Positions 4,534-31,917 of a stretch of DNA of 35,599 nt are shown in pieces. Below the pieces are notes generated by a model. It was not told the origin of the DNA. It saw only the letters and a list, made by a program, of their open reading frames with translations, and made no database searches. Source of the DNA: an uncultured Alphaproteobacteria bacterium (lineage in GTDB: Bacteria; Pseudomonadota; Alphaproteobacteria; Rickettsiales; UBA6187). The first letter of the stretch is position 1; every line of letters begins with the position of its first letter. The translations under genes and the position numbers were made by a program. The stretch is from the NCBI GenBank assembly GCA_937907045.1, contig CALCTU010000123.1, positions 1-35,599 on the forward strand, given 5' to 3'.

Positions 4534-5248
4534 ATGACCTACCACTGGAAGCTAAAAGACTGGCCTCATTTTACCTATGAACTTTCGGGTTTAGAGGAAA
4601 AATTACTTTTGTGTGCTCAATATTTGGGAAGATATGAGGGGCGTTTGTCTTCGTTGTCAAAAGAGTTGCACTTAGAATCAGTGCTAGAGATTATGGTGGT
4701 GGAAGCGGTTAAGACATCTGAAATTGAAGGTGAGTATATTAGTAGAACAGATATACGCTCATCCCTTTGAAGATGGAAATGGTCGTATTGGCAGAGCATT
4801 GTCGGAAAAAATATTAATTTATCATTCAAATTCATTTTTTCCAATATCATTGTCCAAGGCCATAGAATCCAAGAAAAAAATGTATTATGCCCAATTAGAA
4901 CAAGCGCAAAAGACATTGGATATGACCCAATGGATTACCTATTTTGTAGATGTTGTGTTACTAGCATTTGAACAAACTGAAGAGTGGACAGAGTTTGTTA
5001 TAAAGAAAGCGAATTTTTACGACACTTATGGATCATCTTTAAACGTAAGGCAGAATAAAGTCATTAGACGAATGTTGGATGAAGGGCCAAAAGGTTTCGA
5101 AGGTGGTATCAATGCCAAAAAATATATCTCTATTACGGGTTGCTCAAAAGCGACAGCCACGAGAGATCTGCAAAGTTTGTTAGCAATGGGAGTATTAAAG
5201 CATTTATCGGGTGCAGCCAGAGGTATACGTTATCAAATAGTCCTTTGA
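4534..5248 (+). pseudogene. Fic/DOC-family protein, disrupted (internal deletion plus frameshift)
   Basis: ORF 4534-4770 encodes a Fic N-terminal (DUF4172-type) region, MTYHWKLKDWPHFTY...SEIEGEYI. ORF 4724-5248, in another frame, starts almost directly at the Fic active-site motif HPFEDGNGRIGRAL and continues into a C-terminal wHTH-like part. The ~130 aa that normally separate SEIEGE from HPFxxGNGR are missing. The frame switches around 4750-4770. Confidence 0.75.
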
Positions 5249-5444: not shown

Positions 5445-7895
5445 GTGTTTCTTTTTTTAATCAGCGAGTTAATGAGCTCTATGCTTGGTAAGGTATTCGA
5501 TGCGCTGAAAAAGTTTAATGAACCAACATCTGATGTGATGTTGGAGTCCCCTGTTCCTGACTTTATTCCTTATGCATGTCACTTTGATAAAGAGACCATT
5601 CTAACTAAAAATGGTGAGTTGGTTCAAACCATCAAAATTACCGGTTTTTCAGGAGAAGTCATTGGTGCTGAAAAAACAGGATTACGATCGGTTGTCCGTG
5701 AGGCAATAAAAAACCATATTCCTGATGAACATTATGCTTTGTGGATTCACACTATTCGTAGAAAGCAAAGTTTGGATCCAGGAGGGCATTATAGCAACGA
5801 GTTTTCGCATTCACTAAATCAAGCGTGGAAAGCACGACACTCCTGGGGCAGTAAATACGTAAATGAAGTCTATATTTCTGTGATTAGAAGTGGGGCATCG
5901 GCACAAATGGTGGATGTTCAAGGGCTTCTTATGGCGTTGTCTAGCAAGTCATTAAATTATCATCATAGCAAGAAGCTAAACGCCATGAGCAAAGAGCTTA
6001 ATAACGTAACTGATGCTATGTTGGAAACCTTAGGTGGTTTTGGTGCAAGAAAATTATCCATTGTACAACATGAAGGCATTTCATATTCTCAGCCAGCCAG
6101 CTTTTTTGGAAAGATTCTTAACTTGGCAGATGTGCCCATGCCAGTTCCGGTAGAAGATTTATCTACCTATCTTGCTAGCAATCGTGTTGCATTTGGTTTT
6201 AACGCAACTGAGGTGCGAGGGCGTGCTGGTAAACGATTTGGTGCTATTTATACCATTAAAGAGTACCACGAAATACCGTCATCAGCATGGGATCAATTTT
6301 TACAATTGCCCATGGAATTTATTGTTACCCAAACACTTGATTTTGTGAATGCATCGGTTGCCCAGTCACAATTTAAACGCCAATATGATGTGCTGCAGGC
6401 AAGTGGTGCTGAAAAGTTGGCAAAGATCAGTGGACTACAAGAAATTATGCAGGGTGATACGGGCTCGCCACTTGATTTTGGACAAAGTCAGCTTACCATT
6501 ATGTTTATTGATGATGAGCTTGAAAAATTGAATAAAGACTTAGAAAATGCGGCGCAAGTGTTCCGGAACATGGGGATATTGGTTACCCGGCGCGATTTAC
6601 GATTAGAAGAATGTTTTTGGGCACAGTTACCAGCAAATTTCTCTTATATCTCGCGATCCAGGCCCATTGATACAAACAGGGTAGGAGGACTAGCTTCACT
6701 GTACAATTTCCCAGCTGGAAAACGTAAAGGAAATAAGTGGGGGGTAGCAACTACCGTATTTTATACGGATGCGGGTACACCATATTTCTTTAATTTTCAT
6801 GACGAACATTCAGGTCATACATCCATTATAGGTCCATTTGGTGCGGGTAAAACAGTCATCATGAATTTCTTGGTATCTGAGGCACAAAAATATAATGGAA
6901 AACTCTTCTTTTTTGATCAAGGACGTGCCTCTAAGGTTTTTATTAATGCGATTGGTGGACATTATAGCGTGATTAAGCCAGATGAAGCATCGGTAGATTA
7001 TGCATATAATCCATTGAACATTCTTAATATAGAAGACAGTAAAGTTAATCGCGACTATCTAAAGCGCTGGATGCTATTAATGGTTAGCTCACAGCAGGAT
7101 GAGATCTCTGATCAGGAGCGTGATATTTTAAGTAAGTCAATTGACTATATTGCTACCGTTACAAAAGACTACCGAGTACTTCGTCATGTTGTAGAATTTA
7201 TTCAGAAGCAACCCGATTCAGAGCGGCTGTTGCAGAGTTTGTCTCCCTGGGTGGGTAGTGGCAAATATGCGCACTTGTTTGATAATATGAGGCAAGATAG
7301 TGTGCCACTGGATGGTATGATTTATGGATTTGGTATGAGTCATATTATTGAGGATAAGGCGACATTAGGCCCTGTGTTATCGTATTTATTTCATCGTATT
7401 GAAATGGCATTAGATGGAACTCCTACTGTAGTGGTGTTGGATGAGGCCTGGAATTTAGTTAATAACCCAACTTTTGCTCCCGGTTTGGCTGATTGGTTAG
7501 ATCGTTTGGCCGCCAATAATGCTATTGTGATATTTGCCACCGAAAGCGTCGATAATGCTAGTAAAAGTCAGATTACGAATACCATTGTAGAGCGTATTGC
7601 GACTCAGATATTTTTACCGAATGTACAAGCATATAGTTCGAGTGTCGCATATAAAAAAATATGGGGGTTATCGCCCAATGAATTTGAAATGTTAACGTCT
7701 ATGACGGTACAAAAAAGACAATTTATGTTACGGCAAGGAGGGGATGCGGTGGTTGCTTCTCTTGATTTAGAAGGGATTAAAGAGCTTTCAGTCTTGTCAG
7801 GAAGTGACGAAAGTGTTAAAATGATGGAGGGGGCAATAGAAACCAAAGGTGATGACCCTGGAAACTGGCTACAAAGATTTTATGAGATGGCTTAG
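5445..7895 (+). CDS. virB4: Type IV secretion system ATPase VirB4/TrbE family
   Basis: The N-terminal VirB4 signature is FIPYACHFDKETILTKNGELVQTIKITGF. Walker A is GPFGAGKTV and Walker B is VVVLDEAW. Size is ~800 aa. The track start is GTG 5445, but ATG 5472 (MSSMLGK) is an equally plausible start. Confidence 0.9.
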   Translation: MFLFLISELMSSMLGKVFDALKKFNEPTSDVMLESPVPDFIPYACHFDKETILTKNGELVQTIKITGFSGEVIGAEKTGLRSVVREAIKNHIPDEHYALWIHTIRRKQSLDPGGHYSNEFSHSLNQAWKARHSWGSKYVNEVYISVIRSGASAQMVDVQGLLMALSSKSLNYHHSKKLNAMSKELNNVTDAMLETLGGFGARKLSIVQHEGISYSQPASFFGKILNLADVPMPVPVEDLSTYLASNRVAFGFNATEVRGRAGKRFGAIYTIKEYHEIPSSAWDQFLQLPMEFIVTQTLDFVNASVAQSQFKRQYDVLQASGAEKLAKISGLQEIMQGDTGSPLDFGQSQLTIMFIDDELEKLNKDLENAAQVFRNMGILVTRRDLRLEECFWAQLPANFSYISRSRPIDTNRVGGLASLYNFPAGKRKGNKWGVATTVFYTDAGTPYFFNFHDEHSGHTSIIGPFGAGKTVIMNFLVSEAQKYNGKLFFFDQGRASKVFINAIGGHYSVIKPDEASVDYAYNPLNILNIEDSKVNRDYLKRWMLLMVSSQQDEISDQERDILSKSIDYIATVTKDYRVLRHVVEFIQKQPDSERLLQSLSPWVGSGKYAHLFDNMRQDSVPLDGMIYGFGMSHIIEDKATLGPVLSYLFHRIEMALDGTPTVVVLDEAWNLVNNPTFAPGLADWLDRLAANNAIVIFATESVDNASKSQITNTIVERIATQIFLPNVQAYSSSVAYKKIWGLSPNEFEMLTSMTVQKRQFMLRQGGDAVVASLDLEGIKELSVLSGSDESVKMMEGAIETKGDDPGNWLQRFYEMA

Positions 7896-10800
7896 GGTAA
7901 CACAAGACGGTTCTATCGGTCTTGGTGTGTGGTTGCCCGTTTTAGCTGTATTGTATGTACTTGTTACTGTAACAAGCACCCCTGCTTTTGCCGGTAGGAC
8001 AAAAGAGGTGCGAGCCGGTAATGATACTACATTTAATCGTGCTACCATCGAAGTAACCTACGATGATCCGCTGTGGTTTGGATCGCATACTTCTACATTA
8101 ACACATGGTGAATGTAGTTGGATGGGGCATTTTTTAATCCGGGTATGTGCACGTCTTGCAGAACCTATTCCTGAAAAATTTCCAAATGATGCGGGTTATG
8201 ATCCGAACAATCCTGATAATAACCGGGGCAGAGAAAATTTTGGTAATAGAACTGGCCTAGAAGGTGATCCTCGTATTCAGCTTTGTGCGTATGAAGATCC
8301 GTGTGATGGTATGGATCCTCCGGATGGTATTTGCCTGTTATGGGAAAACAACATTAGTCCTTTTCATAAACATACTCCCAATCAAGATGCAATTAGTATG
8401 TCTAATGCCATTTTAATTGGTGGAGCAGCGGCCGTAGTAGCCGGTCCTTTTGGTATTGTTGCGGGTATGTTTACGGGAGCGATGGTGTCATTAATTACCT
8501 CGCATTTTAATCATGTTGTCATAGAAACGCTTGGCTGCGTGGATGTGCCAATGCCTCCTATGCCTCCTGAGTGGTGTAATGATTGCTGGTATGTGCCATA
8601 CTATCCAACACCTGAAATAGAATCTGCGCCAGATGCGACTTTCTTTGATCCTGCTGTTAAAATTACAATTTGTCAAAATAGTGAGAGCCTTCGTGACCCT
8701 AAGGAACTTGAAAAATGTTCACATGAGGACGCTGTAGTACTTGAATCATTTGAGTTGCATCCAAACTTGTCAAACATGACTATGAGAGATGGTAGGCCGC
8801 TATATAGAGAATGTAAGGTTCCTTCTGCTCCAAATGATTCAAGGAATTTTTGTGCTGAAGTTTCAACTGCACGACCTTGGGAAACATGTGTGTTTAGAGA
8901 AATGAGCGATGGTGACAGAGCGATGCTTGCTTGTGTAGACCGTCCGCCTGAAGGTCAAGGTATACCCAAGCCTACTATTTCTCAAGAAAGAGATACTTTT
9001 GATGGTGCCAGGGTAACCATTCAGTATCCTGATCCAGGTGAAGGAATCTTACAGCTTAGAGAAGATCCTGCGTTATTTGATGGAAAAGAGGAAACAGTAC
9101 CAAATCCTGATTGGACAGAACATTGTGGTTATTTACAGCAATATGAATTTTGTTTATTCCGCCCATGTGAAGGGGATGACGGAACATCAGGTCCAGGTAG
9201 TCAATGTGACAATTACGAAGATTATTTATGTGTGAGTGGTTATTCGCCGCCTTATGGTGTGGCCATCAATGTTAATACGGGGGATGTTATTGAGGGAACG
9301 CCAAACAAAGAGAATCCGGTAATTAATGCTGGAGAGGCGGAGTGGATTTATCAACCACCGTTTTGTTGGGAACGCGATCCTGTAACACTTGATTGTAAAA
9401 ACTATACTGGTGAGTGTTGTTCAATGGCGCCTGATCCAGAAGATCCTTCAGCGATAGTTGATACATGTCCAGGTATAGTAGGTCCTTATACAGACGAAGA
9501 AGGGATGTGTTTGCATTATGTGCCTCATGTGGGTGTGGATGTATATACGTTAGATACAGATCCAATTGATCCGGCATGTCCTACAACAACTGGAGAAACC
9601 GAGCCACTGGACTGTAGACCAAAAGAAACAGTGCGTCCATTGACCCCTAAAGAAATGGGGATGTGCCTTAGAGTGCCAGATTCAAATTTCTTAACGATTG
9701 AAAATGGTCCCACTACATTTGATTATAATGTACCAAATGCATGTGGACGAGTACAAGTGCGTATGTGGGCCGGTGGTGGCCGTGGCCATGCATCTGGAGG
9801 AGGAGATAGTAATGACTTTTCAGGTGGTTCTGGTTCGTATGCACAGCTTGAGTTGGACGTTGACCCGTTAGATACAATTGAGTTTGTAGTAGGAGGGGGA
9901 TCCGTAGGTGGCGGTAATTGGCATGGTTATCCTTCGTGCCTTGCAATTGCAGACGATCCACCCGTTGCGCTTAATTGTAATGATGTGGATGCCATTACAG
10001 TAAATCCAGGTAAAGGTCATAATGTTAGTGTGCCGGTGGATTCATATGGTATTGGAAATGCTGGTGTCTTGCCAGAAGGTTATGATTCAGGGGCATGGCG
10101 ATGGAAAGGTGAAGATTGTCAAACTGGTAATAGTAATGCTGGGTGTTACATTATGGACCAAACCCGACACGGATATTCAGGTGGTCATAGTGGAAATGGT
10201 ATTCATGGTCCAGCAGGTGGCAATACACCTCCGTGGTGGTGGTATATCAATAGAGCGCTTAGTGTGGGGCCGGCAGGGGTCAATTATCACTCGCGGTTTA
10301 GTGAAGGTTACATTGGCTGTTGGCCAGATGGGGTACGTCCTCATCCTCGCTCCATATACACAGAACTTCCAGATGAGCCGTTAAGGCCTGGAGGAGCCCA
10401 GCCACAATATACGGTTAATGTCAGTAGTTATGGTACAGTAGGTGATTTTGATGCTGTGACGGTAACGCCAATGGCAGAAACAATTTATTTTGGGAAGATT
10501 AATATTTCTGGCCAAGACGAGTTCTTTATACGCTCATATAATGTTGACGGCGAGCTTGAGGCAATACCAAGGATGTCGTCAGTTACACAGTCAGACGGGG
10601 GAGAAGGGTTTGAAATGCCAGAATCCAGTGGTGCTGACCCATATATCAAATTATCTGATCTGAAACCAAGCCAGGAGCTTGCCCTTGCCAGAAAACATTC
10701 TGTGTATAATGAACTGGCTGCAAAATTGGATAATTGGATTGCCGACCCATCGATTGCTGGTTTAACGGAAGATATTATTCAAGATACCCAAATTATTGCC

Positions 10801-11574
10801 GGTGGTCCGTTGGTGGGTGGTTTAAGTGTTGCTGCGTACGCTAATTTATCTGAGTTTGATGCAGTTGAGGCTGTTGCTGATACCTTATTTTATGCAAAAA
10901 TTGGTGGAGATTATTACTTGCGATCATACGACAATAGTAGTCCCCCAGAGTTATTGCCAATACCCGATACAGCAGGGTCTGCAGCCATGCATGTGGCACT
11001 AACTTCGTTAGACCCAATTACGGATCCTGCCGAAGAGGCAGAGGCTACTGAAAATGAAGCAGAAGCAAATGAGCTTGTTTCGGCATATGATGAGTTGATT
11101 GAAAATTTAGGTCAGTGGTTGTCTGGAAGTATTGGTACATCCCAAAGTAATCTTATTTTAAATGGATCACGTATTGTCACTGGTCTTAGTTTATATAAAG
11201 CTGAAGGTGCAACGGTTTTTGAGCATCGTTGGCCGGGTGCAGGGGGATGTTCTTGGGACGATCCAGATGATGAGCCGTGGGGACATGGTGCGCATGGTCG
11301 TGTGGAAATTAAATGTATTAAAGGTAGTGGCTTGATTATGGATCAAGTTCCGTGCCCTGCAACTACTCAAGTTGTTGGCTATTTAAATATAGAGACAAAC
11401 ACGTTTGAGATGGAAACATGTACGATGCCAGAAACGCCATATGGTTTTTATGCACCTGCTGGCTCATGTGAGAATACTGCATCTACTCCTGCTATATTTG
11501 ATGCATCTTTAGGGCATAGAGTCCGTGCATTTAGAGCACCTCCAATGTGTAATAACGGCTCATGGGTTTATTAG
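7849..11574 (+). CDS. Giant cysteine-rich secreted/envelope protein with a split glycine-rich (ALK/LTK-GRD-like) domain; function unknown
   Basis: 1,241-codon ORF overlapping the virB4 stop (7893-7895); the alternative start ATG 7882 (MRWLRV) gives a 14-nt overlap. The N-terminus is signal-peptide-like and ends TSTPAFA/GR. A second hydrophobic helix lies at nt ~8407-8500. I count about 40 Cys, and the protein is Pro/Asp/Gly-rich. The glycine-rich motif is FDYNVPNACGRVQVRMWAGGGRGHASGGGDSNDFSGGSGSYAQLELDV..IEFVVGGGSVGGG. Confidence 0.8.
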   Translation: MMTLETGYKDFMRWLRVTQDGSIGLGVWLPVLAVLYVLVTVTSTPAFAGRTKEVRAGNDTTFNRATIEVTYDDPLWFGSHTSTLTHGECSWMGHFLIRVCARLAEPIPEKFPNDAGYDPNNPDNNRGRENFGNRTGLEGDPRIQLCAYEDPCDGMDPPDGICLLWENNISPFHKHTPNQDAISMSNAILIGGAAAVVAGPFGIVAGMFTGAMVSLITSHFNHVVIETLGCVDVPMPPMPPEWCNDCWYVPYYPTPEIESAPDATFFDPAVKITICQNSESLRDPKELEKCSHEDAVVLESFELHPNLSNMTMRDGRPLYRECKVPSAPNDSRNFCAEVSTARPWETCVFREMSDGDRAMLACVDRPPEGQGIPKPTISQERDTFDGARVTIQYPDPGEGILQLREDPALFDGKEETVPNPDWTEHCGYLQQYEFCLFRPCEGDDGTSGPGSQCDNYEDYLCVSGYSPPYGVAINVNTGDVIEGTPNKENPVINAGEAEWIYQPPFCWERDPVTLDCKNYTGECCSMAPDPEDPSAIVDTCPGIVGPYTDEEGMCLHYVPHVGVDVYTLDTDPIDPACPTTTGETEPLDCRPKETVRPLTPKEMGMCLRVPDSNFLTIENGPTTFDYNVPNACGRVQVRMWAGGGRGHASGGGDSNDFSGGSGSYAQLELDVDPLDTIEFVVGGGSVGGGNWHGYPSCLAIADDPPVALNCNDVDAITVNPGKGHNVSVPVDSYGIGNAGVLPEGYDSGAWRWKGEDCQTGNSNAGCYIMDQTRHGYSGGHSGNGIHGPAGGNTPPWWWYINRALSVGPAGVNYHSRFSEGYIGCWPDGVRPHPRSIYTELPDEPLRPGGAQPQYTVNVSSYGTVGDFDAVTVTPMAETIYFGKINISGQDEFFIRSYNVDGELEAIPRMSSVTQSDGGEGFEMPESSGADPYIKLSDLKPSQELALARKHSVYNELAAKLDNWIADPSIAGLTEDIIQDTQIIAGGPLVGGLSVAAYANLSEFDAVEAVADTLFYAKIGGDYYLRSYDNSSPPELLPIPDTAGSAAMHVALTSLDPITDPAEEAEATENEAEANELVSAYDELIENLGQWLSGSIGTSQSNLILNGSRIVTGLSLYKAEGATVFEHRWPGAGGCSWDDPDDEPWGHGAHGRVEIKCIKGSGLIMDQVPCPATTQVVGYLNIETNTFEMETCTMPETPYGFYAPAGSCENTASTPAIFDASLGHRVRAFRAPPMCNNGSWVY
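10441..11205 (+). repeat. Diverged tandem duplication (~120-135 aa units) inside the giant ORF
   Basis: Unit 1 begins GDFDAVTVTPMAETIYFGKINISGQDEFFIRSYNVDGELEAIP and continues through ELALARKHSVYNELAAKLDNWIADPS...IIAGGPLVGGLSV. Unit 2 (from nt 10849) begins SEFDAVEAVADTLFYAKIGGDYYLRSYDNSSPPELLPIP and continues through EANELVSAYDELIENLGQWLSGSI...IVTGLSLY. Both units are Cys-free. Confidence 0.55.
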
Positions 11575-13963: not shown

Positions 13964-15061
13964 ATGAGTAACATTAGTCGCAGAGATATGATTTTAGGTC
14001 TTGGAGCTTTGGGAGCAACGTCTGTAGCAGTCTCAGCACTTCCATCTCCGGCGATTGCCAAAAATGTACGTCATTGGAAAATGGTATTGACGTGGCAGAA
14101 GGTTCTTCCAGGCTTAGGTACCGGAGCAGTAAGGTTAGCTAAGCGTATTGAATCACTTTCGGATGGAGCCATTAAAATAGATGTTTATGGTGGTGGTGAA
14201 TTGGTTCCTGCCATGGAAGTTTTTGATGCTGTTTCGCAAGGAACGGCTGACCTTGGACATAGTGCTCCTTACTATTGGCTAAATAAAAGCAAAGCAACGT
14301 CGTTTTTTTGTGGTGTACCAGGTGGTCTAACAGTGCAAGAACAAAATGGTTGGCTGTATTTTGGTGGAGGTAAAAAGCTTTGGGACGAGTTATATGCTCC
14401 TTTTGGAGTAGTTGCTTTCCCTGCAGGAAATACTGGTTGTCAGATGGGAGGATGGTTTAATAAAGAGCTGCGTACAGCAAGTGATATTAAAGGCCTAAAG
14501 ATGCGTATTCCTGGACTTGGAGGAGAGGTATTTACAAAGCTTGGTGGTAGTGCTCAGGTTATTCCACCTCAAGAATTATTTACTGCAATGCAGTCAGGTG
14601 TGATTGATGCACTGGAATGGGTTGGTCCATGGAATGATTTATCACTAGGGTTTCATCGTGTTTCAAAATATTATTATGGTCCTGCGTTCCAAGAGGGAGG
14701 TCCTACATTGGAATTATTGGTAAATAAGCAGGCTTTTGAAAATTTACCCAAACACCTGCAACAAGTTGTTAAGGTAGCGTGCGCTACAGAAAACGAACTC
14801 ATGACCGCTCAATATTATGCGAATAATATAAGATCGTTTAATATATTAAAAAACAAACATAAAGTTGATATAAGACGGTACCCTGATGATGTGATGAAGG
14901 CTTTCTTTACTATGGCCAAACAGGTAATAGCAAGTGTAGCTGAATTGGGAGATATTGAAAAACGTGTCTATGACTCGTATTTTGCATATCGTAAGAAGTC
15001 TATGGCAATGACACCATATACTGAGTTGGGTTTTTTAGAAGCACGTAGAAGGTTTGGATAA
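13964..15061 (+). CDS. TRAP-transporter periplasmic substrate-binding protein (DctP family) with Tat-type signal peptide
   Basis: Twin-arginine signal MSNISRRDMILGLGALGATSVAVSALPSPAIA/KN. It is a mature ~330-aa DctP-type binding protein (WKMVLTWQK...GGELVPAMEVFDAVSQGTADLGHSAPYYW). No DctQ/DctM membrane genes are adjacent. Confidence 0.75.
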   Translation: MSNISRRDMILGLGALGATSVAVSALPSPAIAKNVRHWKMVLTWQKVLPGLGTGAVRLAKRIESLSDGAIKIDVYGGGELVPAMEVFDAVSQGTADLGHSAPYYWLNKSKATSFFCGVPGGLTVQEQNGWLYFGGGKKLWDELYAPFGVVAFPAGNTGCQMGGWFNKELRTASDIKGLKMRIPGLGGEVFTKLGGSAQVIPPQELFTAMQSGVIDALEWVGPWNDLSLGFHRVSKYYYGPAFQEGGPTLELLVNKQAFENLPKHLQQVVKVACATENELMTAQYYANNIRSFNILKNKHKVDIRRYPDDVMKAFFTMAKQVIASVAELGDIEKRVYDSYFAYRKKSMAMTPYTELGFLEARRRFG

Positions 15062-15609
15062 TGGCGATTAATAAGTCCCTAAAATTAGTACTCGATATAG
15101 GTCCGATTATTTTATTTTTTGCGGCCTATAAGTTAAGTGACTTGTATGTGGCGACAGCTTTGTTGATAGGTACAACACTAATTACATTTGCGATAACCTA
15201 CGTCATAGAAAAGAAAGTACCCTGGATGCTGCTCTTTACAGCTATTCTTGTGGCAGTTATGGGAGGACTGACCATTGTGCTTCACGACGATACATTTATT
15301 AAAATGAAGCCTACATTCATTAATTTGCTGTTTGCAGCTATATTATTCGCGGGCTACGTTGCTGGCAAAGGGCTTCTACGATACGTGTTTGCAGGTTCAA
15401 TTACAATGAGTGATGATGCCTGGAAAATTTTTTCCCTGAGGTGGGCGTTATTTTTTGTTTTTGTTGCAATTATCAATGAATGTGTTTGGCGTTTGTTTGA
15501 TACTGACACATGGGTCAATTTTAAGGTGTTTGGCCTTATCACGCTCACAATGGTATTTTTGGCAACACAAATGCCATTTTTAAAGAAACATATGGATAGT
15601 CAGCAGTAG
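15061..15609 (+). CDS. yciB: Intracellular septation protein A (YciB/IspZ)
   Basis: 182 aa with five hydrophobic segments. Conserved stretches HDDTFIKMKPTFINLLFA and WVNFKVFGL match E. coli YciB as I remember it. Its start overlaps the preceding stop (TAATG, 15059-15063). Confidence 0.8.
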   Translation: MAINKSLKLVLDIGPIILFFAAYKLSDLYVATALLIGTTLITFAITYVIEKKVPWMLLFTAILVAVMGGLTIVLHDDTFIKMKPTFINLLFAAILFAGYVAGKGLLRYVFAGSITMSDDAWKIFSLRWALFFVFVAIINECVWRLFDTDTWVNFKVFGLITLTMVFLATQMPFLKKHMDSQQ

Positions 15610-18764: not shown

Positions 18765-19082
18765 TTAAACGCTCCCCCCATGTTTAACTTGCTTGCAAGT
18801 ATCTATTGCTTTTTTGATTTGTGCAAGTGATTTCTCAATTTTACGTCTATTGAGCATACCAGGGCGTTTGCCAGTTTGTACAAAACGACGATATTCTTCG
18901 GCCAACACGTCGGTTGCCTCTTCGACTTGTTGAACAAGTGGTTCGATAAATTCAAGCTGAGCCATTGGGTTGGTAGTGGCTTCGTCCTCTACCGTATTAA
19001 TGAGATCCTCTGCGAAATCGTAAAATTTTACGATATCGCCATAGGCTGCTTCATGTTGCTCTTGTGTTACCGCTTTAGTCAT
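18765..19082 (-). CDS. Small acidic hypothetical protein (105 aa), predicted helical
   Basis: The ORF has its own promoter-like element upstream. The composition is helical and acidic (EDLINTVEDEATTNPMAQLEFIEPLVQQVEEATDVLAEEYRRF). No family recognised. Confidence 0.5.
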   Translation of the reverse strand: MTKAVTQEQHEAAYGDIVKFYDFAEDLINTVEDEATTNPMAQLEFIEPLVQQVEEATDVLAEEYRRFVQTGKRPGMLNRRKIEKSLAQIKKAIDTCKQVKHGGSV

Positions 19083-22922: not shown

Positions 22923-23197
22923 CTACAGTAAATTTTTTAGTCTCGTTTTTTAGGTGTAAACCACCATGTCATGGTTGAATCATAGCGCTTAAATATCGCA
23001 TTTCAATGTCTTTTTTGTTTTCGATCGTGAATAAAAGTGTAAATGAAAACACCATTTATTGGAGAGAAATGGCCTTAGATCATAAACTATGAGATTTTCG
23101 TGTTGCCTTGAGGTTGCAAATATACTAGGCTTAACTAATGTTCTGATTGAATTTAATCAGGCAGATGGGGTTTGATATTTATTTTCCAGGGAGGATC

Positions 23198-23551
23198 ATG
23201 ACAGAAGAAAATACGAATGAGGCTCAATCTGAATCAAGTCAGGAGTCGGTGGAAGCCAGTAAAGGTGGCTCTACTGAGGTAAAGCTTCCTCAAATGTGTG
23301 AAATATCAGATGCAAAGCAAATATATGACCTTATTAAAGAAGCAAATGCTAAGGGGAGTGAGGTTATTATTGATGCCTCTGAGGTAACGTCTCTGACAAC
23401 TCCATGTTTGCAAATTCTTATTTCAGCGTCTAGTCATGTGACTGAAGGGGGCGGCTCCTTTGTGATCAAAGGTGAAACAGATGTGTTTAGGAAATCTGTG
23501 TCTGATTTTGGATTATTTTCAAAATTACAGGAGTGGGGGTGTCAGGTATGA
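23198..23551 (+). CDS. Small STAS-domain protein heading the che operon (non-phosphorylatable type)
   Basis: ATG 23198 is preceded by GGGAGG. The STAS-like core is IIDASEVTSLTTPCLQILISA....SFVIKGETDVFRKSVSDFGL and lacks the DS[ST]G phospho-site. A small STAS ORF precedes cheY1-cheA in rhizobial che operons (from memory). The stop overlaps the cheY start (ATGA). Confidence 0.65.
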   Translation: MTEENTNEAQSESSQESVEASKGGSTEVKLPQMCEISDAKQIYDLIKEANAKGSEVIIDASEVTSLTTPCLQILISASSHVTEGGGSFVIKGETDVFRKSVSDFGLFSKLQEWGCQV

Positions 23552-23922
23552 GTCGTGTAGCGTTAACTGTGGATGACTCAAAAACCATCCGCCAAATGGT
23601 CTCTTTTACTCTCAAACAAGCCGGATTTGATGAAGTGTGGGAAGCAGAAGATGGGCGTCATGCTATTTCGGTACTTGGAGATAAGCACGTTGATATTATT
23701 ATTACTGACCTAAATATGCCAAATATGGATGGTTTTGAGTTATTGAGGCATTTACGTCAGGATCCCAATTACAAATTCATCCCTATATTAATGTTAACAA
23801 CTGAGGGTGATGATTCAAAAAAACAAAAGGGCAAAGATGCCGGTGCTACAGGTTGGATTGTAAAGCCGTTTGTTCCTGAAAAGTTAATAAAAGTTGTTAA
23901 AAAAGTTGCCAATATTGACTAA
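23548..23922 (+). CDS. cheY: Chemotaxis response regulator CheY
   Basis: Single REC domain: ALTVDDSKTIRQMV, phospho-acceptor context IIITDLNMPNMDG, LMLTTE, and GWIVKPF. Start ATG 23548 overlaps the upstream stop. Confidence 0.9.
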   Translation: MSRVALTVDDSKTIRQMVSFTLKQAGFDEVWEAEDGRHAISVLGDKHVDIIITDLNMPNMDGFELLRHLRQDPNYKFIPILMLTTEGDDSKKQKGKDAGATGWIVKPFVPEKLIKVVKKVANID

Positions 23923-23976
23923 CAGTTGGTTTATATTGGGGGGTAATTTATATAATTATGTTGGTGGGTATGAATC

Positions 23977-26166
23977 ATGATGGATGACTTAGATCAGTTT
24001 AAGGATACCTATATCACCGAATGCAATGAGCTTCTGGAGGATATGGAGGAGCGGTTGCTGGGTATTGATGAATCAGATCCTGATCTTGAAGACGTCAATG
24101 CAGTTTTTAGGTGTGCGCATTCTATTAAAGGTGGTGCTGGAGCATTTGGTTTGACCGAAATAGGTGGGTTCACCCATATTTTGGAAGAATTGTTGGATGC
24201 TATGCGTAATTCTGAAGTGCAGGTTACGCGTGAAATTATTGATTTATTGCTGGCATCTGCAGAAGTTGTTAAAGAAATGGTAGCAACGGTTCAGCAAGGG
24301 GATCCGGTTCCAGAAACGTTGGGTCAAGATTTGGCGATTGAATTAAGAAAAGTTGTTGCTGAACAGTCAGGTGGTGGAGCTGCATCAGAAGAAGCTCCTG
24401 CGGAAAGCTCGGAGGCTCCAGAAGAGGCACCGTCGAGTGATGCATCTTCAGACTCGTCTGCTCAAGATCCAAACCCCACAGGGACAAGGGAAGTTGAAAT
24501 TGGCATATATGATATAGAATTTAAGCCGCATAAAGGACTCTTTCTTACCGGTAATGAGCCTCTCTTTATTATTAGAGAGCTTAAGGAATTAGGGTCGTTA
24601 GAAGTTTATACGCAAATTGATGAACTTCCTGAGTTTGATAAACTTGAGCCAGAATCATGCTATGTTTGGTGGAAGTTTGTGTTAGAAGCGGAGGCAACTA
24701 CCGAAAAATTGACTGAAGTTTTTGAATTTGTAGAAGATGAGTGCGATTTAACAATAAACCGATTAGGGGGATATAGTAAGCAGGTTGAGTTAACAGAAGA
24801 AGAAAAGGCCGCGCAGCAAGCTGCAGTGGAAGCATCAAAAGAGCCACAAGAAAGTGATGACCAGGATAACAATGCCCCTCAAGAAGAGACTGCTGAAGAT
24901 AAACAAAAAGTTGAAGAAGAGAAAAAGCCTGCACCCGCTAAGGCCAAGAGTAATAAAGATAAAGCTGCCAAAGCTCCAGTGGCTGCTTCAATTCGTGTAG
25001 ATGTTGATAAAATTGACCGTTTGGTTAACTTGGTTGGCGAGCTAGTTATCAATCAGGCAATGATATCATCCCAGGCAGATAAACTACCAAAGGATAAGTT
25101 TTTTGGGCTATTAAATGGCATATCAGAACTGTCACAGCATATGGTTGAGCTTCAAGAAGCTGTGATGGCTGTGCGTATGATGCCAGTAAAATCAGTTTTT
25201 TCACGGATGTCGATGTTGGTTCGTGATTTAAGTGCAAAGTTAGGTAAGAATATCCGCATGGATATGGCGGGTGAGAATACGGAGCTCGATAAGACTGTTA
25301 TTGAGCAATTAACAGACCCATTAACTCATATGATACGAAATTCTGTGGACCACGGTATTGCTACGCCTGAGGTTCGCTTGGAGCAGGGAAAGCCTGAAGA
25401 AGGCGTCATAAAATTGACCGCAGAGCATTCTGGTGGACGAATTCTGATCCGTATAGAAGATGATGGTAATGGTATTGAAAGGCAGCGTGTCTTGGATAAG
25501 GCAGTCGAAAAAGGTTTGATTTCCGAAGATGCTGAACTGTCTGATCATGAAATTGATAATCTTATTTTTATGGCAGGATTTTCTACTGCTGAGGCTGTGT
25601 CAGACATTTCTGGTCGTGGTGTGGGGATGGATGTTGTCAGAAGAAACATAGAGTCATTGGGTGGTACTGTTACAATTGACAATAATCCAGGCGTTGGTAA
25701 TGCATTTATCATTGTATTGCCGCTTACTTTAGCAATTCTTGATGGTATGATTGTGCGTGTGGGTAATGAAAAATACGTTATTCCTATAGGTTCTATTGTT
25801 GAGACGCTAAGACCTTCTTCTGAAGATATCCAAAAGATTGCAGATAAAAGTGAGACGATCAATGTCAGGGGAGAGTTTGTCCCAATATTGTACCTCTATC
25901 AGCTCTTCAATATCCAGGATGCTAAACATACTATTTCGGATGGACTAGTGATCTTGCTAGAAAATGGTGATGACAAATTTGGCCTTGTGGTAGATGAGTT
26001 AATAGGACAACAACAGGTGGTTATTAAGAGTTTAGAAGAAAATTCTTTTGTCGTCCCTGGAATTTCAGCTGCTACCATCTTAGGTGACGGTAGGGTTTCT
26101 TTGATCCTGGATGTCGCTGGAGTAAGAAATATGGAGACCCCTATGGCGTTGGCTGAGGTGTCTTGA
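23977..26166 (+). CDS. cheA: Chemotaxis histidine kinase CheA (P1-P5, no C-terminal receiver)
   Basis: Hpt motif FRCAHSIKGGAGAFG, dimerisation region IRVDVDKIDRLVNLVGELVI, kinase N-box HMIRNSVDHGI, G-boxes DDGNGI and GRGVGMDVV. The C-terminal CheW-like P5 domain is present. Two acidic or Lys-rich low-complexity linkers separate the domains. Confidence 0.93.
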   Translation: MMDDLDQFKDTYITECNELLEDMEERLLGIDESDPDLEDVNAVFRCAHSIKGGAGAFGLTEIGGFTHILEELLDAMRNSEVQVTREIIDLLLASAEVVKEMVATVQQGDPVPETLGQDLAIELRKVVAEQSGGGAASEEAPAESSEAPEEAPSSDASSDSSAQDPNPTGTREVEIGIYDIEFKPHKGLFLTGNEPLFIIRELKELGSLEVYTQIDELPEFDKLEPESCYVWWKFVLEAEATTEKLTEVFEFVEDECDLTINRLGGYSKQVELTEEEKAAQQAAVEASKEPQESDDQDNNAPQEETAEDKQKVEEEKKPAPAKAKSNKDKAAKAPVAASIRVDVDKIDRLVNLVGELVINQAMISSQADKLPKDKFFGLLNGISELSQHMVELQEAVMAVRMMPVKSVFSRMSMLVRDLSAKLGKNIRMDMAGENTELDKTVIEQLTDPLTHMIRNSVDHGIATPEVRLEQGKPEEGVIKLTAEHSGGRILIRIEDDGNGIERQRVLDKAVEKGLISEDAELSDHEIDNLIFMAGFSTAEAVSDISGRGVGMDVVRRNIESLGGTVTIDNNPGVGNAFIIVLPLTLAILDGMIVRVGNEKYVIPIGSIVETLRPSSEDIQKIADKSETINVRGEFVPILYLYQLFNIQDAKHTISDGLVILLENGDDKFGLVVDELIGQQQVVIKSLEENSFVVPGISAATILGDGRVSLILDVAGVRNMETPMALAEVS

Positions 26167-26198
26167 TTATTTTTATGTTATCGTTTTAGGAGATTGCA

Positions 26199-26789
26199 AT
26201 GACAGATTTAGCTGTAAAAGAGAAAGTAATCGATGAAAATCAGGATGGTGAATCTTCTGTAGATAGAGGGAATCAAAAACAGTTTCTAAGTTTTGCTGCA
26301 GGCGAAGAAGAGTTTGCAATTGAGTTGATTAAAATACGTGAGATTAAAAATTACGGTGATCTAACTAGAATACCAAATGCACCAAGCTTCATGCGCGGAG
26401 TAATGAACTTGCGTGGTGCCGTGATTCCCATTTTTGATCTCAAGTTACGGCTTGATATGGGGGGGGTTAACTCAGACGAATCAAGTGTTGTTATTATTGT
26501 TGGGGTGATGGGAAAACAGATTGGTATATTGGTTGATTCTGTTTCGGATATACTGACCATTGATGCAAGTGAAATTGCTCCTGCGCCTAGGGTCGACTCA
26601 GGAAAGAAAGCTCAATGTTTAGAAGGGGTGATTGCTGTAAAGGGCAAAATGGTAGTTATTTTACAGTTAGAGCAATTATTTTCTGATGAAGTATTACGAG
26701 ATGCCAAAAAGGGTGACGTAACAAGTAACCATGTTAGCGCTTCTGATGCTGAGGTTTTAGAAGAACCTGCAAATATTGATGATGAATAA
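26199..26789 (+). CDS. cheW: Chemotaxis coupling protein CheW (with N- and C-terminal extensions)
   Basis: Core is FLSFAAGEEEFAIELIKIREIKNYGDLTRIPNAPSFMRGVMNLRGAVIPIFDLKLRL...GILVDSVSDIL. An AGGAG Shine-Dalgarno precedes the ATG. Confidence 0.88.
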   Translation: MTDLAVKEKVIDENQDGESSVDRGNQKQFLSFAAGEEEFAIELIKIREIKNYGDLTRIPNAPSFMRGVMNLRGAVIPIFDLKLRLDMGGVNSDESSVVIIVGVMGKQIGILVDSVSDILTIDASEIAPAPRVDSGKKAQCLEGVIAVKGKMVVILQLEQLFSDEVLRDAKKGDVTSNHVSASDAEVLEEPANIDDE

Positions 26790-26806
26790 AGGTTTGGGTT
26801 GCGCTT

Positions 26807-27658
26807 ATGGAAGGTGGCAATAAGGAATTTGACTTTTCAGATAAGGACTTTGAGTTCATCTCGGATATGGTGAAGTCACGGGTTGGCATTATGCTGCCAT
26901 ACAAAAAGAAGCAGATGGTATATGGAAGGCTTGTAAGAAGGCTTAGGGCATTAGGAATCCCAACATTTACAGAATACTGCAAACTATTAAGAGACGAAAA
27001 AAAAGCAGATGAAGAGTTAACACAGTTTGTTAATGCAATTACAACGAATCTTACGGGATTCTTCCGTGAGGCTCATCATTTTGAACATTTAAAGAGTTAT
27101 CTTCAGGATTTACAGCAATCAAAACAAAAGAGCAAAGAAGCTAGTTGTTTTAGATTGTGGTCGTCAGCGTGTTCCTCTGGACAAGAGCCCTACAGTATAG
27201 CAATGACAGTACTTAATTCTTTTCCTTCGATTGCGAACATAGATGTTAAAATATTAGCTACAGACATTGATACAAATATGCTTGATAGAGCCAAAGAAGG
27301 TATATACCACGAAGATGCTTTTTCTAAGGCTCCTCCTGGTTATATGAAAGAATATACAAGCTCTGCTTCTCAGGAAAGTGAAGGAATGCGTCAAGTAAAG
27401 CATTCGGTTAAAGATTTGATACGATTTAATCAGTTAAACTTGTTAAATGCATGGCCGATGAAAGGATTATTTGATGTTATTTTTTGCCGTAATGTAGTTA
27501 TTTATTTTGATAAAGATACTCAAAGGGTACTATTTGATCGTATGGCAGAAAAAATGCATATGGGGGCCATACTATATATAGGTCACTCTGAAAGTTTATT
27601 TAATATTTGTGACCGCTTTGAGTCTTTGGGGCAAACAATATACAGGAAAATAAAATAG
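26807..27658 (+). CDS. cheR: Chemotaxis protein methyltransferase CheR
   Basis: N-terminal helical domain (FEFISDMVKSRVGIML...TNLTGFFRE). The SAM-binding core is LWSSACSSGQEPYSIAM...ILATDID...FDVIFCRNVVIYFD. Confidence 0.9.
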   Translation: MEGGNKEFDFSDKDFEFISDMVKSRVGIMLPYKKKQMVYGRLVRRLRALGIPTFTEYCKLLRDEKKADEELTQFVNAITTNLTGFFREAHHFEHLKSYLQDLQQSKQKSKEASCFRLWSSACSSGQEPYSIAMTVLNSFPSIANIDVKILATDIDTNMLDRAKEGIYHEDAFSKAPPGYMKEYTSSASQESEGMRQVKHSVKDLIRFNQLNLLNAWPMKGLFDVIFCRNVVIYFDKDTQRVLFDRMAEKMHMGAILYIGHSESLFNICDRFESLGQTIYRKIK

Positions 27659-27668
27659 GGAAGAAGAA

Positions 27669-28727: not shown

Positions 28728-28789
28728 TGTTTGTGTTATACTTAACGAGTAAGGACAAGCTTATGCTGCTGGGGGAGGGCTAAGTATAA

Positions 28790-29638: not shown

Positions 29639-29669
29639 TTGTTTAATGGTATGATAAAAGAAGGTTGCC

Positions 29670-29975: not shown

Positions 29976-30032
29976 TAAAATATTAATGATTTTTTGATAT
30001 GATTTGCTTTATGTATTAGGTAAAGGAGATCA

Positions 30033-31244: not shown

Positions 31245-31251
31245 TTTATTA

Positions 31252-31524: not shown

Positions 31525-31585
31525 AAATACCCGTTGGAAACGATTGCTTGATATAAGTGATCACGCTACCAAAGGTTTATCAGCT

Positions 31586-31900: not shown

Positions 31901-31917
31901 GTCTGTAGCTCATTATT

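What the first reader, a model, noticed from the sequence alone, without database searches (positions are those of the whole stretch)
5445..11574. Orphan VirB4 ATPase translationally coupled to a 1,241-aa cysteine-rich secreted giant: candidate undescribed two-gene envelope module
virB4 looks functional (Walker A GPFGAGKT and Walker B VVVLDEAW are intact). It is not accompanied by any recognisable virB2/3/5/6/8-11, virD4 or relaxase gene in 35 kb. Upstream is a decayed fic gene and downstream a housekeeping permease. The virB4 stop (7893-7895) lies inside the start region of a 1,241-codon ORF, with a 14-47 nt overlap depending on the start chosen, which implies coupled expression. The partner has a signal-peptide-like N-terminus (TSTPAFA/GR) and one more hydrophobic helix (AILIGGAAAVVAGPFGIVAGMFTGAMVSLI). 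It has about 40 Cys by my count and many Pro/Asp. I can recognise no resemblance to VirB5, VirB6 or TrbL. By analogy only, a large Cys-rich envelope protein beside a VirB4-family ATPase recalls F-type TraN, the Cys-rich outer-membrane mating-pair stabiliser. It could be a surface adhesin or substrate of a scattered (Rickettsiales-vir-homolog-style) T4SS. It could instead be a domesticated remnant of an integrated element.
Basis: partly seen in the sequence, partly recalled or inferred. Interest (0 to 1): 0.8.

Follow-up and report, generated by a model that had tools for sequence, protein, structure and literature searches.

The report
Unnamed surface protein partnered with RvhB4-II
The "orphan" VirB4 is the RvhB4-II copy of the scattered type IV secretion system of free-living relatives of Rickettsia, and the 1,241-residue cysteine-rich protein joined to it belongs to an unnamed family that almost always sits right after this ATPase, so it is a good candidate for the adhesin this secretion system was thought to lack.

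Summary
ORF 5445-7895 is a full-length VirB4 with intact Walker A and B motifs. ORF 7849-11574 overlaps its stop codon and encodes a 1,241-aa protein with a signal peptide and 40 Cys. No other T4SS gene lies in the 35.6 kb.

The VirB4 is not really an orphan. Its relatives include two proteins that Lehman et al. 2024 list as RvhB4-II, the second VirB4 paralogue of the scattered Rickettsiales vir homolog (rvh) T4SS. The window looks like a motile, free-living basal Rickettsiales chromosome.

The giant belongs to an unannotated family (40 cluster representatives at E<1e-30). In 14 of 15 distinct loci the family gene lies 3' of VirB4: directly in 13, with ispA in between in one. At least seven different flanking contexts occur. 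VirB2 pilin genes lie directly 5' of VirB4 in six loci, and the two reading frames overlap in five.

The protein has a conserved, beta-rich, Cys-rich N-terminal module of about 550 aa with no Pfam, PDB or plasmid match. Its C-terminus is a variable glycine-rich domain like those of phage tail fibres and ALK.

Best reading (inferred): a Sec-exported surface adhesin that depends on RvhB4-II and occupies the virB5 slot. It is not homologous to VirB5, VirB6 or TraN.

The parts
4534..5248 (+). Split fic gene (pseudogene or frameshift). It is context only. It sits where virB2/TrbC lies in related loci such as L013.
   Evidence: Two ORFs in different frames: DUF4172/Fic_N at 4534-4770 and the Fic C-terminal part at 4724-5248. 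L013 has HK, HTH_25, TrbC, VirB4 and the giant in that order.
5445..7895 (+). virB4, the RvhB4-II paralogue of the rvh T4SS. The likely true start is ATG 5472.
   Evidence: Pfam and NCBIfam matches. It is 54.6% identical to the VirB4 on UBA6187 contig_46975 and 48% identical to MCD6035825. Both are listed as RvhB4-II in Table S1 of PMC11077975.
6831..6854 (+). Walker A motif GPFGAGKT (aa 463-470).
   Evidence: The motif is canonical in 11 of the 12 giant-linked VirB4s. L009 has the variant GPAKTGKT, which still fits GxxxxGKT. L012 has GKE.
7428..7451 (+). Walker B motif VVVLDEAW (aa 662-669).
   Evidence: L009 and L012 have EEAW instead.
7849..7895 (+). Overlap of the virB4 3' end with the start region of the giant ORF (14-47 nt, depending on the start chosen).
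   Evidence: The same kind of overlap occurs in L007 (38 nt), L008 (8), L010 (20) and L013 (59).
7849..11574 (+). Giant ORF 'X': 1,241 aa, 40 Cys, member of an unannotated family linked to RvhB4-II.
   Evidence: Every source that names a member calls it 'hypothetical protein'.
7849..7992 (+). Signal peptide, with predicted cleavage after AFA (aa 46-48).
   Evidence: Hydrophobic core at aa 19-48. N-terminal hydrophobic leaders occur in nearly all relatives. No SignalP tool was available.
7993..9648 (+). Conserved N-terminal module (aa 49-600): beta-rich, disulfide-rich, the signature of the family.
   Evidence: AF2 with a 68-sequence alignment gives pLDDT mostly 75-95. Nearly invariant residues include RxCxR, CAYEDPxDGxD, NHxV, GCxD and RP..P.P. 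There is no Pfam hit in 49 members, no PDB fold or sequence hit and no plasmid hit.
8284..8334 (+). Family signature motif CAYEDPCDGMDPPDGIC (aa 146-162).
8407..8496 (+). Gly/Ala-rich hydrophobic hairpin with GxxxGxxxG (aa 187-216). It is facultative within the family.
   Evidence: 31 of 44 members are hydrophobic here; 26 of 44 have a glycine-zipper pattern. AF2 predicts two helices with low pLDDT. There is a weak NCBIfam hit to E492 microcin at aa 185-243, E 0.045. One relative hits Pfam Gly-zipper_Omp.
9691..10251 (+). First part of the glycine-rich (Gly_rich_2 / ALK-TG / phage-fibre-like) domain (about aa 615-801).
   Evidence: PF21722 is found in 24 of 49 relatives. Foldseek on BFVD gives 24 hits with E<=1e-3, nearly all named ones glycine-rich-domain or collagen-like proteins of phages and giant viruses. 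In PDB the best-probability hits are the ALK/LTK TG domain, the Bxb1 tail tip and the Pam3 fibre.
10252..11223 (+). Insertion of about 325 aa, specific to this lineage, inside the glycine-rich domain. It holds a tandem duplication (aa 861-997 and 998-1116).
   Evidence: It is absent from P0002, P0003 and L004. pLDDT is below 50. Smith-Waterman score is 77 against a shuffle mean of 29.4, sd 5.1, z 9.4.
11224..11328 (+). Closing part of the glycine-rich domain (WPGAGGCS...GHGAHGRVEIKC).
   Evidence: Conserved columns G1129-C1155. pLDDT is 80-92.
11329..11571 (+). C-terminal four-Cys extension ending ...CNNGSWVY, shared by a subset of relatives.
   Evidence: It aligns with P0004 and P0005. The same pattern can be read in the printed sequences of P0008, P0025, P0032 and P0044.

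Best explanation
The two genes form the rvhB4-II islet of the scattered rvh type IV secretion system in a basal, probably free-living Rickettsiales bacterium. The ancestral layout is virB2 pilin gene(s), then rvhB4-II, then X. In the window's sub-clade the pilin gene is not adjacent.

Proposed mechanism:
1. rvhB4-II and X are co-transcribed and translationally coupled. The overlap is shown; the coupling is inferred.
2. X is exported by Sec and folded with many disulfide bonds in the periplasm. This is inferred from the signal peptide and the 40 Cys.
3. The conserved N-terminal module of about 550 aa docks X onto the outer part of the T4SS or onto its VirB2 filament. RvhB4-II still has Walker A and B motifs here. 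It supplies the VirB4-type energy for assembling the pilin and X. All of this is inferred, by analogy with the published VirB4-VirB8-VirB5-VirB2 assembly pathway.
4. The distal, fast-evolving and exchangeable C-terminal module binds a ligand on a target cell. That module is a glycine-rich fold like those of phage fibres and ALK, and other members carry LamG or other modules. The fold similarity and the modularity are shown; ligand binding is inferred.

On this reading X does the job of the pilus-tip adhesin VirB5, which the rvh system is said to lack, without being homologous to VirB5.
For: RvhB4-II identity.
- L004 is UBA6187 contig_46975, which Table S1 of PMC11077975 lists as RvhB4-II.
- P0218 is MCD6035825, also listed there as RvhB4-II. 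It is 48% identical to the window VirB4.
- The window encodes chemotaxis and two-component genes. That fits the published description of basal Rickettsiales.

Linkage.
- In 14 of 15 distinct loci the family gene lies 3' of VirB4.
- At least seven different flanking contexts occur.
- TrbC/VirB2 lies directly 5' of VirB4 in six loci.
- The two frames overlap in five loci.
- The virB2 plus virB4-2 islet is known in Anaplasmataceae.

Position. In a canonical operon, VirB5 (PF07996) lies 3' of VirB4.

Literature. The rvh system is described as having no VirB5 analogue.

Export and surface character.
- Signal peptides occur across the family, and members have 22-54 Cys.
- The C-terminal fold matches receptor-binding-type glycine-rich domains.
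- X diverges faster than VirB4: 24-38% against 38-57% identity to the window copies.
- C-terminal modules vary: Gly_rich_2 in 24 of 49 members and LamG_3 in one, while P0041, P0042 and P0043 carry unrelated C-termini.
Against: - There are no expression, localisation or interaction data.
- X has no detectable similarity to VirB5 in sequence (hhalign probability 0.06%; no PF07996 hit). Its predicted fold is beta-rich, not a helical bundle.
- One distant paralogue (P0047) has no VirB4 or TrbC within 8 kb.
- The rest of the rvh system, including virB2, was not shown to exist in the window's own genome.
- Part of the conserved adjacency could reflect shared descent.
- The sigma-70 and terminator scans were uninformative. 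A promoter-like site at 7794-7822 could allow independent transcription of X.
Confidence: 0.5

Rival explanations
1. X is a substrate, not a component. It would be a Sec-exported toxin or effector that the rvh T4SS releases from the periplasm, the route pertussis toxin takes. It might serve the bacteria-killing or anti-protist role proposed for the ancestral rvh system.
For: The signal peptide and many Cys point to a periplasmic intermediate. A glycine-zipper hydrophobic hairpin and a weak similarity to microcin E492 could mean membrane insertion into a target. The literature proposes a killing role for the basal rvh system. The C-terminal receptor-binding-like domain would also suit a toxin.
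Against: No catalytic or toxin domain was detected in 49 members. No adjacent immunity-like small gene is conserved across the loci. The glycine-zipper segment is missing in about 30% of members. The strongly conserved part is the N-module, not a payload.
Confidence: 0.2
2. X is an ordinary Sec-dependent surface or periplasmic protein with no functional tie to the T4SS. It stays next to rvhB4-II only through inherited gene order or chance co-transcription.
For: Several loci share HTH_25 upstream and IspA downstream, which is conserved housekeeping synteny. One distant paralogue is not linked to VirB4. In L003, ispA sits between the two genes.
Against: The pair survives while the flanks change completely in at least seven contexts. 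The linked VirB4s have diverged to 38-57% identity. The frames overlap in five loci. Even very distant members (P0041, P0042, P0065) keep the link.
Confidence: 0.15
3. X is a channel or mating-pair protein of a known type: a VirB6-like inner-membrane subunit, as in the expanded rickettsial VirB6 paralogues, or a TraN-like outer-membrane stabiliser.
For: It is large and lies downstream of a VirB4, like the rvhB6 genes after rvhB4-I. It is Cys-rich, as F-type TraN is (from general knowledge).
Against: No member hits TrbL/VirB6 or TraN in Pfam. X has at most one facultative hydrophobic hairpin, whereas VirB6 has five or more transmembrane segments (one search reports at least eight for Anaplasma VirB6). 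A canonical VirB6 is readily detected by the same Pfam scan. No T4SS structure appears among the Foldseek PDB hits shown. The VirB4 is of the P/rvh type, not the F type.
Confidence: 0.07
4. The pair is a domesticated remnant of an integrated conjugative element or plasmid.
For: A split fic gene lies directly upstream. VirB4 appears without the rest of a T4SS in 35 kb.
Against: GC3 of virB4 (0.34) and X (0.29) falls within the housekeeping range of 0.27-0.40. The higher total GC of X comes from GC2, that is, from amino-acid composition. There is no integrase, relaxase or coupling protein. The best plasmid VirB4 is only 33% identical, and the N-module is absent from 72,556 plasmids. The VirB4 is the vertically inherited RvhB4-II.
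Confidence: 0.03

Closest known systems
The rvhB2/rvhB4-II islet of the Rickettsiales vir homolog (rvh) T4SS, for example virB2 paralogues plus virB4-2 in Anaplasma and Neorickettsia
   Same: It uses the same VirB4 paralogue. The locus lies apart from the other T4SS genes. VirB2 pilin genes lie next to VirB4 in six related loci, as in Anaplasmataceae.
   Different: Published RvhB4-II proteins of classical Rickettsiales lack ATPase active sites. Here Walker A and B are intact, as in 10 of the 12 linked VirB4s. The published islet has no described third gene; here a conserved large secreted protein follows VirB4. The window itself has no adjacent virB2.
VirB5 family (VirB5, TraC of pKM101, TrwJ; Pfam PF07996), the minor pilin and pilus-tip adhesin
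   Same: The gene lies 3' of virB4. The protein has a Sec signal peptide. A surface or adhesive role is plausible.
   Different: There is no sequence similarity. X is five times larger, its predicted fold is beta-rich, and it is disulfide-rich. This is a functional analogy only.
Glycine-rich domains of phage tail fibres and minor tail proteins, and the ALK/LTK TG domain (Pfam Gly_rich_2, PF21722)
   Same: The C-terminal domain matches by fold. 24 of 49 relatives match the Pfam model.
   Different: It covers only the C-terminal third. In the window protein the domain is interrupted by an insertion of about 325 aa and falls below Pfam detection. In X it is fused to a T4SS-linked N-module rather than to a phage tail or a kinase.
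F-type TraN, the Cys-rich outer-membrane mating-pair stabiliser
   Same: It is a large, Cys-rich, Sec-exported protein encoded with a T4SS.
   Different: No Pfam or fold match was found. The T4SS type differs. No conjugation genes are nearby.
Expanded VirB6 paralogues of Rickettsiales, which follow rvhB4-I
   Same: They are large, variable, possibly surface-exposed proteins encoded directly after a VirB4 paralogue.
   Different: VirB6 proteins are polytopic and carry the TrbL domain. X has neither feature.

Membership tests
VirB4 / CagE / TrbE ATPase | CagE_TrbE_VirB domain and full-length similarity to VirB4 | tested here: met
   PF03135 scores 114 bits against a cut-off of 21. TIGR00929 scores 637.3 bits over residues 34-814, just under its curated cut-off of 643.1.
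VirB4 / CagE / TrbE ATPase | Walker A and Walker B nucleotide-binding motifs | tested here: met
   GPFGAGKT at aa 463 and VVVLDEAW at aa 662.
RvhB4-II (second VirB4 paralogue of the rvh T4SS) | Groups with proteins classified as RvhB4-II rather than RvhB4-I | tested here: met
   It is 54.6% identical to the only VirB4 of UBA6187 (contig_46975) and 48% identical to MCD6035825. Both are in the RvhB4-II column of Table S1, PMC11077975. No labelled RvhB4-I sequence could be retrieved for a direct contrast, and no tree was built.
RvhB4-II (second VirB4 paralogue of the rvh T4SS) | Locus separate from the other rvh loci; virB2 genes may be adjacent | tested here: met
   No other T4SS gene lies in 35.6 kb. 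TrbC is adjacent in six related loci. Literature.
RvhB4-II (second VirB4 paralogue of the rvh T4SS) | Degenerate ATPase active sites, as described for classical Rickettsiales | tested here: not met
   The motifs are intact here. They are degenerate only in L012 (GKE, EEAW) and partly in L009 (EEAW). This trait was described for derived lineages and may not define the paralogue.
rvh T4SS as a whole | The remaining rvh genes (virB3, several virB6, duplicated virB8 and virB9, virB10, virB11, virD4) are present elsewhere in the same genome | not testable with these tools
Their presence is inferred from the published rvh content of Athabascaceae and Mitibacteraceae.
VirB5 / TraC / TrbJ (PF07996) | Sequence similarity to the family profile | tested here: not met
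   No hit at E<=0.1 for the window protein. None in 49 relatives. hhalign of the family against a plasmid protein that matches PF07996 (AvhB5) gives probability 0.06%.
VirB5 / TraC / TrbJ (PF07996) | Small (about 220 aa) helical-bundle fold | tested here: not met
   X has 1,241 aa. The AF2 model is beta-rich, with one low-confidence helical hairpin in the N-module.
VirB5 / TraC / TrbJ (PF07996) | Gene 3' of virB4, and a Sec signal peptide | tested here: met
VirB6 / TrbL (PF04610) | Polytopic inner-membrane protein with the TrbL domain | tested here: not met
   No Pfam hit. X has only a signal peptide and one facultative hydrophobic hairpin.
F-type TraN | Match to the TraN family, and an F-type T4SS context | tested here: not met
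   No Pfam hit. No TraN structure appears among the top Foldseek PDB hits. The VirB4 is closest to the P/rvh type: TraC-F scores only 81 bits.
Gly_rich_2 (PF21722) | Match to the Pfam profile | tested here: inconclusive
   The window protein has no Pfam hit. However, 24 of 49 aligned relatives do, and the aligned region of the window model matches glycine-rich-domain proteins by fold.
Integrative conjugative element or plasmid remnant | Relaxase, coupling protein or integrase; atypical composition | tested here: not met
   None is present in the window. GC3 is typical of the neighbouring genes. The N-module is absent from the plasmid collection.

The most novel reading that the evidence does not exclude
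X is the missing pilus-tip or surface adhesin of the rvh T4SS, a non-homologous replacement for VirB5. RvhB4-II began as an active ATPase dedicated, with VirB2, to building that surface structure. When Rickettsiales became host-restricted, X was lost and RvhB4-II lost its ATPase motifs. That would explain the long-puzzling 'defective' second VirB4 of the pathogens.
Probability: 0.3. Interest if true: 0.8.

Novelty: new variant of a known kind. Interest (0 to 1): 0.62.

Why it matters
The rvh T4SS is the central host-interaction machine of Rickettsia, Anaplasma, Ehrlichia, Wolbachia and their relatives. Two of its features have stayed unexplained since 2009. First, the system has no VirB5 analogue. 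Second, it keeps a second VirB4 (RvhB4-II) that looks catalytically dead and has no known function.

In basal environmental lineages this paralogue keeps its ATPase motifs. It is also tightly linked, often with overlapping reading frames, to a conserved, exported protein whose tip resembles a receptor-binding domain. This gives a concrete, testable idea of what RvhB4-II was for, and of how the ancestral system contacted its targets.

It also defines a new protein module of about 550 residues with a confident predicted fold and no relative in Pfam, PDB or plasmids.

Tried and rejected
- The single-sequence word-indexed search found only two homologues. That badly understated the family. The exhaustive profile search was needed.
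- AF2 on the N-terminal part with 7 sequences was poor, pLDDT 53. The run with 68 sequences was usable.
- Foldseek against PDB gave nothing for the N-module. Only the glycine-rich domain matched, and weakly. A profile search of PDB sequences gave only the Pam3 fibre, at E 0.5.
- hhalign against a plasmid VirB5 was negative.
- tblastn of the N-module against 72,556 plasmids was negative.
- tblastn for a VirB2/TrbC remnant in the window, including the fic region, was negative.
- The promoter and terminator scan found fewer promoter-like sites than in shuffled sequence, and about as many terminator-like sites. It does not settle the operon structure.
- A BLASTP self-comparison of the insertion found no repeat. 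Smith-Waterman with shuffles did.
- The key 2010 rvh paper (PMC2863512) is not held.
- Literature searches for PF21722, Gly_rich_2 or a Cys-rich partner of virB4 found no description of this family.
- I considered and dropped these readings: VirB6-like, TraN-like, ICE remnant, and a conserved transmembrane anchor.
- I could not retrieve a labelled RvhB4-I for contrast.

Full report
OBSERVATION

The window has about 40% GC. It carries ordinary chromosomal genes:
- histidine kinases and response regulators
- a RodZ-like HTH_25 protein
- a CitMHS/TrkA_C permease
- a thioesterase, a TRAP solute-binding protein and IspA
- peroxiredoxin and thioredoxin reductase
- a GyrB/ParE-type topoisomerase subunit
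- a CheA-CheW-CheR-CheB cluster
- a STAS/SpoIIE partner-switching cluster
- SerA

ORF 5445-7895 is a full-length VirB4. PF03135 scores 8.7e-33, TIGR00929 scores 637 bits and PRK13898 scores 651 bits. Walker A is GPFGAGKT and Walker B is VVVLDEAW. A public gene call starts at ATG 5472 and gives 807 aa.

The virB4 stop codon, TAG at 7893-7895, lies inside ORF 7849-11574. The giant's possible starts are GTG 7849, ATG 7852 and ATG 7882, which overlap virB4 by 47, 44 and 14 nt.

The giant has 1,241 codons, 40 Cys, 107 Pro, 89 Asp and 128 Gly. It has a signal-peptide-like leader ending AFA/G and a second hydrophobic stretch at aa 187-216.

Upstream, fic is split into two frames. Pfam found no T4SS family in the 33 other main ORFs that were scanned, and a tblastn search for VirB2 was negative. 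The short ORFs that overlap larger genes were left unscanned.

THE VirB4 IS RvhB4-II, NOT AN ORPHAN

A scan of one genome per species found two relatives of the giant. One is in an 'uncultured Rickettsiales' MAG (L003). The other is on 'UBA6187_contig_46975' (L004). UBA6187 is an Athabascaceae MAG. That family is a basal, apparently free-living Rickettsiales lineage with flagella, chemotaxis genes and the rvh T4SS.

Table S1 of Lehman et al. 2024 (PMC11077975) lists contig_46975 as the RvhB4-II of UBA6187. That VirB4 is 54.6% identical to the window's.

A second, independent link comes from P0218. It is 48% identical to the window VirB4. It carries accession MCD6035825, which is in the RvhB4-II column of the same table.

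Published work describes the rvhB4-II locus as well separated from the other rvh loci. In Anaplasmataceae it is clustered with virB2 paralogues. A lone VirB4 among housekeeping genes is thus the expected picture for this paralogue.

Published RvhB4-II proteins of classical Rickettsiales lack ATPase active sites. Ten of the twelve VirB4s linked to a giant, including the window's, keep canonical Walker A and B motifs. L012 (GKE, EEAW) and L009 (EEAW) show decay.

I did not obtain a labelled RvhB4-I for contrast, I built no tree, and I could not search the window's own genome for the other rvh genes.

THE GIANT BELONGS TO A CONSERVED, UNANNOTATED FAMILY TIED TO THIS VirB4

The first search found only two homologues. 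An exhaustive profile search of 1.84 billion cluster representatives found more:
- 40 representatives at E<1e-30
- about 30 further proteins that match only the N-terminal module

Where a source gives a name, it is 'hypothetical protein'. The MAGs are labelled Rickettsiales, Alphaproteobacteria or Pseudomonadota, with a few fragments labelled Candidatus Poribacteria.

I looked up the genomic context of every member I could. A VirB4 lies 5' of the family gene in these loci:
- the window
- L001
- L002, which is the same place as L005
- L003 and L004
- L006, L007 and L008
- L009
- L010
- L012
- L013
- L018, where the contig starts inside the C-terminus of the VirB4 (tblastn E 3e-27)
- L019

That makes 14 of 15 distinct loci. 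In L003, ispA lies between the two genes.

The set includes very distant members: P0041 and P0042, which have a different C-terminus, and P0065. The one exception is P0047, a match to the N-module only, which has no VirB4 or TrbC within 8 kb.

The flanks differ widely: PhoH and a GHMP kinase; TauE and ThiG; a glycosyltransferase; phasin; cupredoxin and CitMHS; NadA; and HTH_25 with IspA.

A TrbC/VirB2 pilin gene lies directly 5' of VirB4 in six loci (L001, L004 with two copies, L010, L012, L013, L019).

The two reading frames overlap in five loci: the window, L007, L008, L010 and L013.

L013 has the order dCache kinase, an unnamed gene, HTH_25, TrbC, VirB4, giant. The window has the same order without the unnamed gene and with the split fic gene in place of TrbC. 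Its closest relatives (L003, L006, L007, L009) also lack the adjacent pilin gene.

The VirB4s are 38-57% identical to the window's, and the giants 24-38%. The partner therefore evolves faster.

ANATOMY OF THE PROTEIN

AlphaFold2 with a 68-sequence alignment gave mean pLDDT 68. Mature residues 1-750 score mostly 75-95. Numbering below is for the 1,241-aa precursor.

1. Signal peptide, aa 1-48.

2. Beta-rich N-terminal module, aa 49 to about 600.
   - Nearly invariant positions include RxCxR, CAYEDPxDGxD, NHxV, GCxD and RP..P.P, plus many Cys.
   - It matches nothing: no Pfam family in 49 members, no PDB fold at E<=1e-3, no PDB sequence and none of 72,556 plasmids.

3. Gly/Ala-rich hairpin with a GxxxGxxxG pattern, aa 187-216, inside the N-module.
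   - It is modelled with low confidence.
   - It is hydrophobic in 31 of 44 members that could be scored, and it is replaced by a short linker in several.
   - It is therefore a facultative insert, not a conserved membrane anchor.
   - One relative hits Pfam Gly-zipper_Omp. The window gives a weak hit to microcin E492.

4. C-terminal glycine-rich domain.
   - 24 of 49 relatives match Pfam Gly_rich_2.
   - By fold, the window model matches glycine-rich-domain proteins, minor tail proteins and collagen-like proteins of phages and giant viruses, with 24 hits at E<=1e-3 in BFVD.
   - It matches more weakly the ALK/LTK TG domain, the Bxb1 tail tip and the Pam3 fibre in PDB.
   - In the window protein this domain is interrupted by an insertion of about 325 aa with low model confidence.
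   - The insertion holds a tandem duplication, aa 861-997 and 998-1116 (z 9.4).

5. C-terminal four-Cys extension ending CNNGSWVY, shared with a subset of relatives.

Other members carry LamG_3 repeats (P0014) or unrelated C-termini.

HOW IT MOST LIKELY WORKS

Shown:
- X is a conserved partner of RvhB4-II and its reading frame often overlaps that of rvhB4-II.
- VirB2 is frequently adjacent.
- X carries features that point to Sec export and disulfide bonding.
- It has a conserved N-module and a fast-evolving, exchangeable tip that resembles receptor-binding domains.
- It occupies the slot that virB5 holds in a canonical operon. On pAtK84c the order is VirB2, VirB3, VirB4, a hypothetical gene, VirB5, a small ORF, then VirB6.

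Inferred:
- X is displayed on the cell surface or on the VirB2 filament through its N-module.
- RvhB4-II supplies the energy for assembly.
- The C-terminal module binds target cells.

This would give the rvh system, repeatedly described as lacking a VirB5 analogue, a non-homologous functional replacement. X is not a VirB5 homologue, nor VirB6 or TraN.

Rivals:
- A periplasm-routed secreted toxin or effector.
- An unrelated neighbour kept in place by synteny.
- A VirB6-like or TraN-like component.
- A remnant of a mobile element. This last is disfavoured because GC3 matches the housekeeping genes, no mobility genes are present, and the N-module has no plasmid relative.

NOVELTY AND VERDICT

The rvh system and its separate rvhB4-II islet are known. 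The conserved third gene, its N-terminal module and the intact ATPase motifs of RvhB4-II in these lineages are not described in any paper I could find.

I class this as a new variant of a known kind. The link to RvhB4-II is well supported. The adhesin or tip role is a reasoned hypothesis.

Noticed in passing
window 6831-6854 and 7428-7451; L009 and L012 VirB4: RvhB4-II here and in 10 of 12 linked loci keeps canonical Walker A and B motifs, whereas the literature says RvhB4-II lacks ATPase sites. L012 (GKE, EEAW) and L009 (EEAW) show what look like early stages of that decay.
   Followed up: partly
window 4534-5248: The fic gene is split into two frames (DUF4172/Fic_N, and the Fic core with an intact HPFEDGNGR). 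It sits exactly where TrbC/VirB2 lies in L013-type loci. The closest relatives (L003, L006, L007, L009) have neither fic nor TrbC there.
   Followed up: partly
window 10429-11196: Tandem duplication of a unit of about 120-137 aa (aa 861-997 and 998-1116) inside the lineage-specific insertion of the glycine-rich domain. Each copy is predicted to end in a long helix. Model confidence is low.
   Followed up: partly
window 11329-11571: A C-terminal four-Cys extension ending C-x-x-G-x-W-x-[FY] at the very C-terminus recurs in P0004, P0005, P0008, P0025, P0032 and P0044 but not in other members. A terminal aromatic residue recalls outer-membrane sorting signals, but this was not tested.
   Followed up: no
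window 7794-7822: A promoter-like site (TTGTCA, 17-nt spacer, TAAAAT, with an upstream TG) lies inside the 3' end of virB4, just before the giant's start. It could allow separate transcription. Overall the scan found fewer sites than in shuffled sequence.
   Followed up: no
window 15061-15609; L003 6500-7051; L006, L007, L009: ispA moves around the pair. It lies directly after the giant in L006, L007 and L009, and between VirB4 and the giant in L003. In the window it is 3.5 kb downstream, after CitMHS, a thioesterase and DctP. L012 also has CitMHS directly after the giant.
   Followed up: partly
L016 8001-12440 (P0047): A distant paralogue (1,479 aa) that carries only the N-module signature lies between a rhodanese gene and a peptidase M24 gene, with no VirB4 or TrbC within 8 kb. 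It is the only unlinked member seen.
   Followed up: partly
window 23147-32382: A chemotaxis cluster (STAS, CheY-like, CheA, CheW, CheR, CheB) is followed by several STAS proteins, a response regulator fused to a SpoIIE phosphatase, and further receiver proteins. This fits a motile, free-living basal Rickettsiales rather than an obligate endosymbiont.
   Followed up: no
window 18765-19082 (-), 28790-29638 (+), 35097-35582 (-): Three ORFs of 105, 282 and 161 aa have no Pfam match at E<=1e-5.
   Followed up: no
P0014, P0041, P0042, P0043 (relatives): The conserved N-module is fused to different C-terminal parts: LamG_3 repeats after the glycine-rich domain in P0014, and Cys-rich or unrelated regions with no glycine-rich domain in P0041-P0043. 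This is a modular make-up like that of phage fibres.
   Followed up: partly
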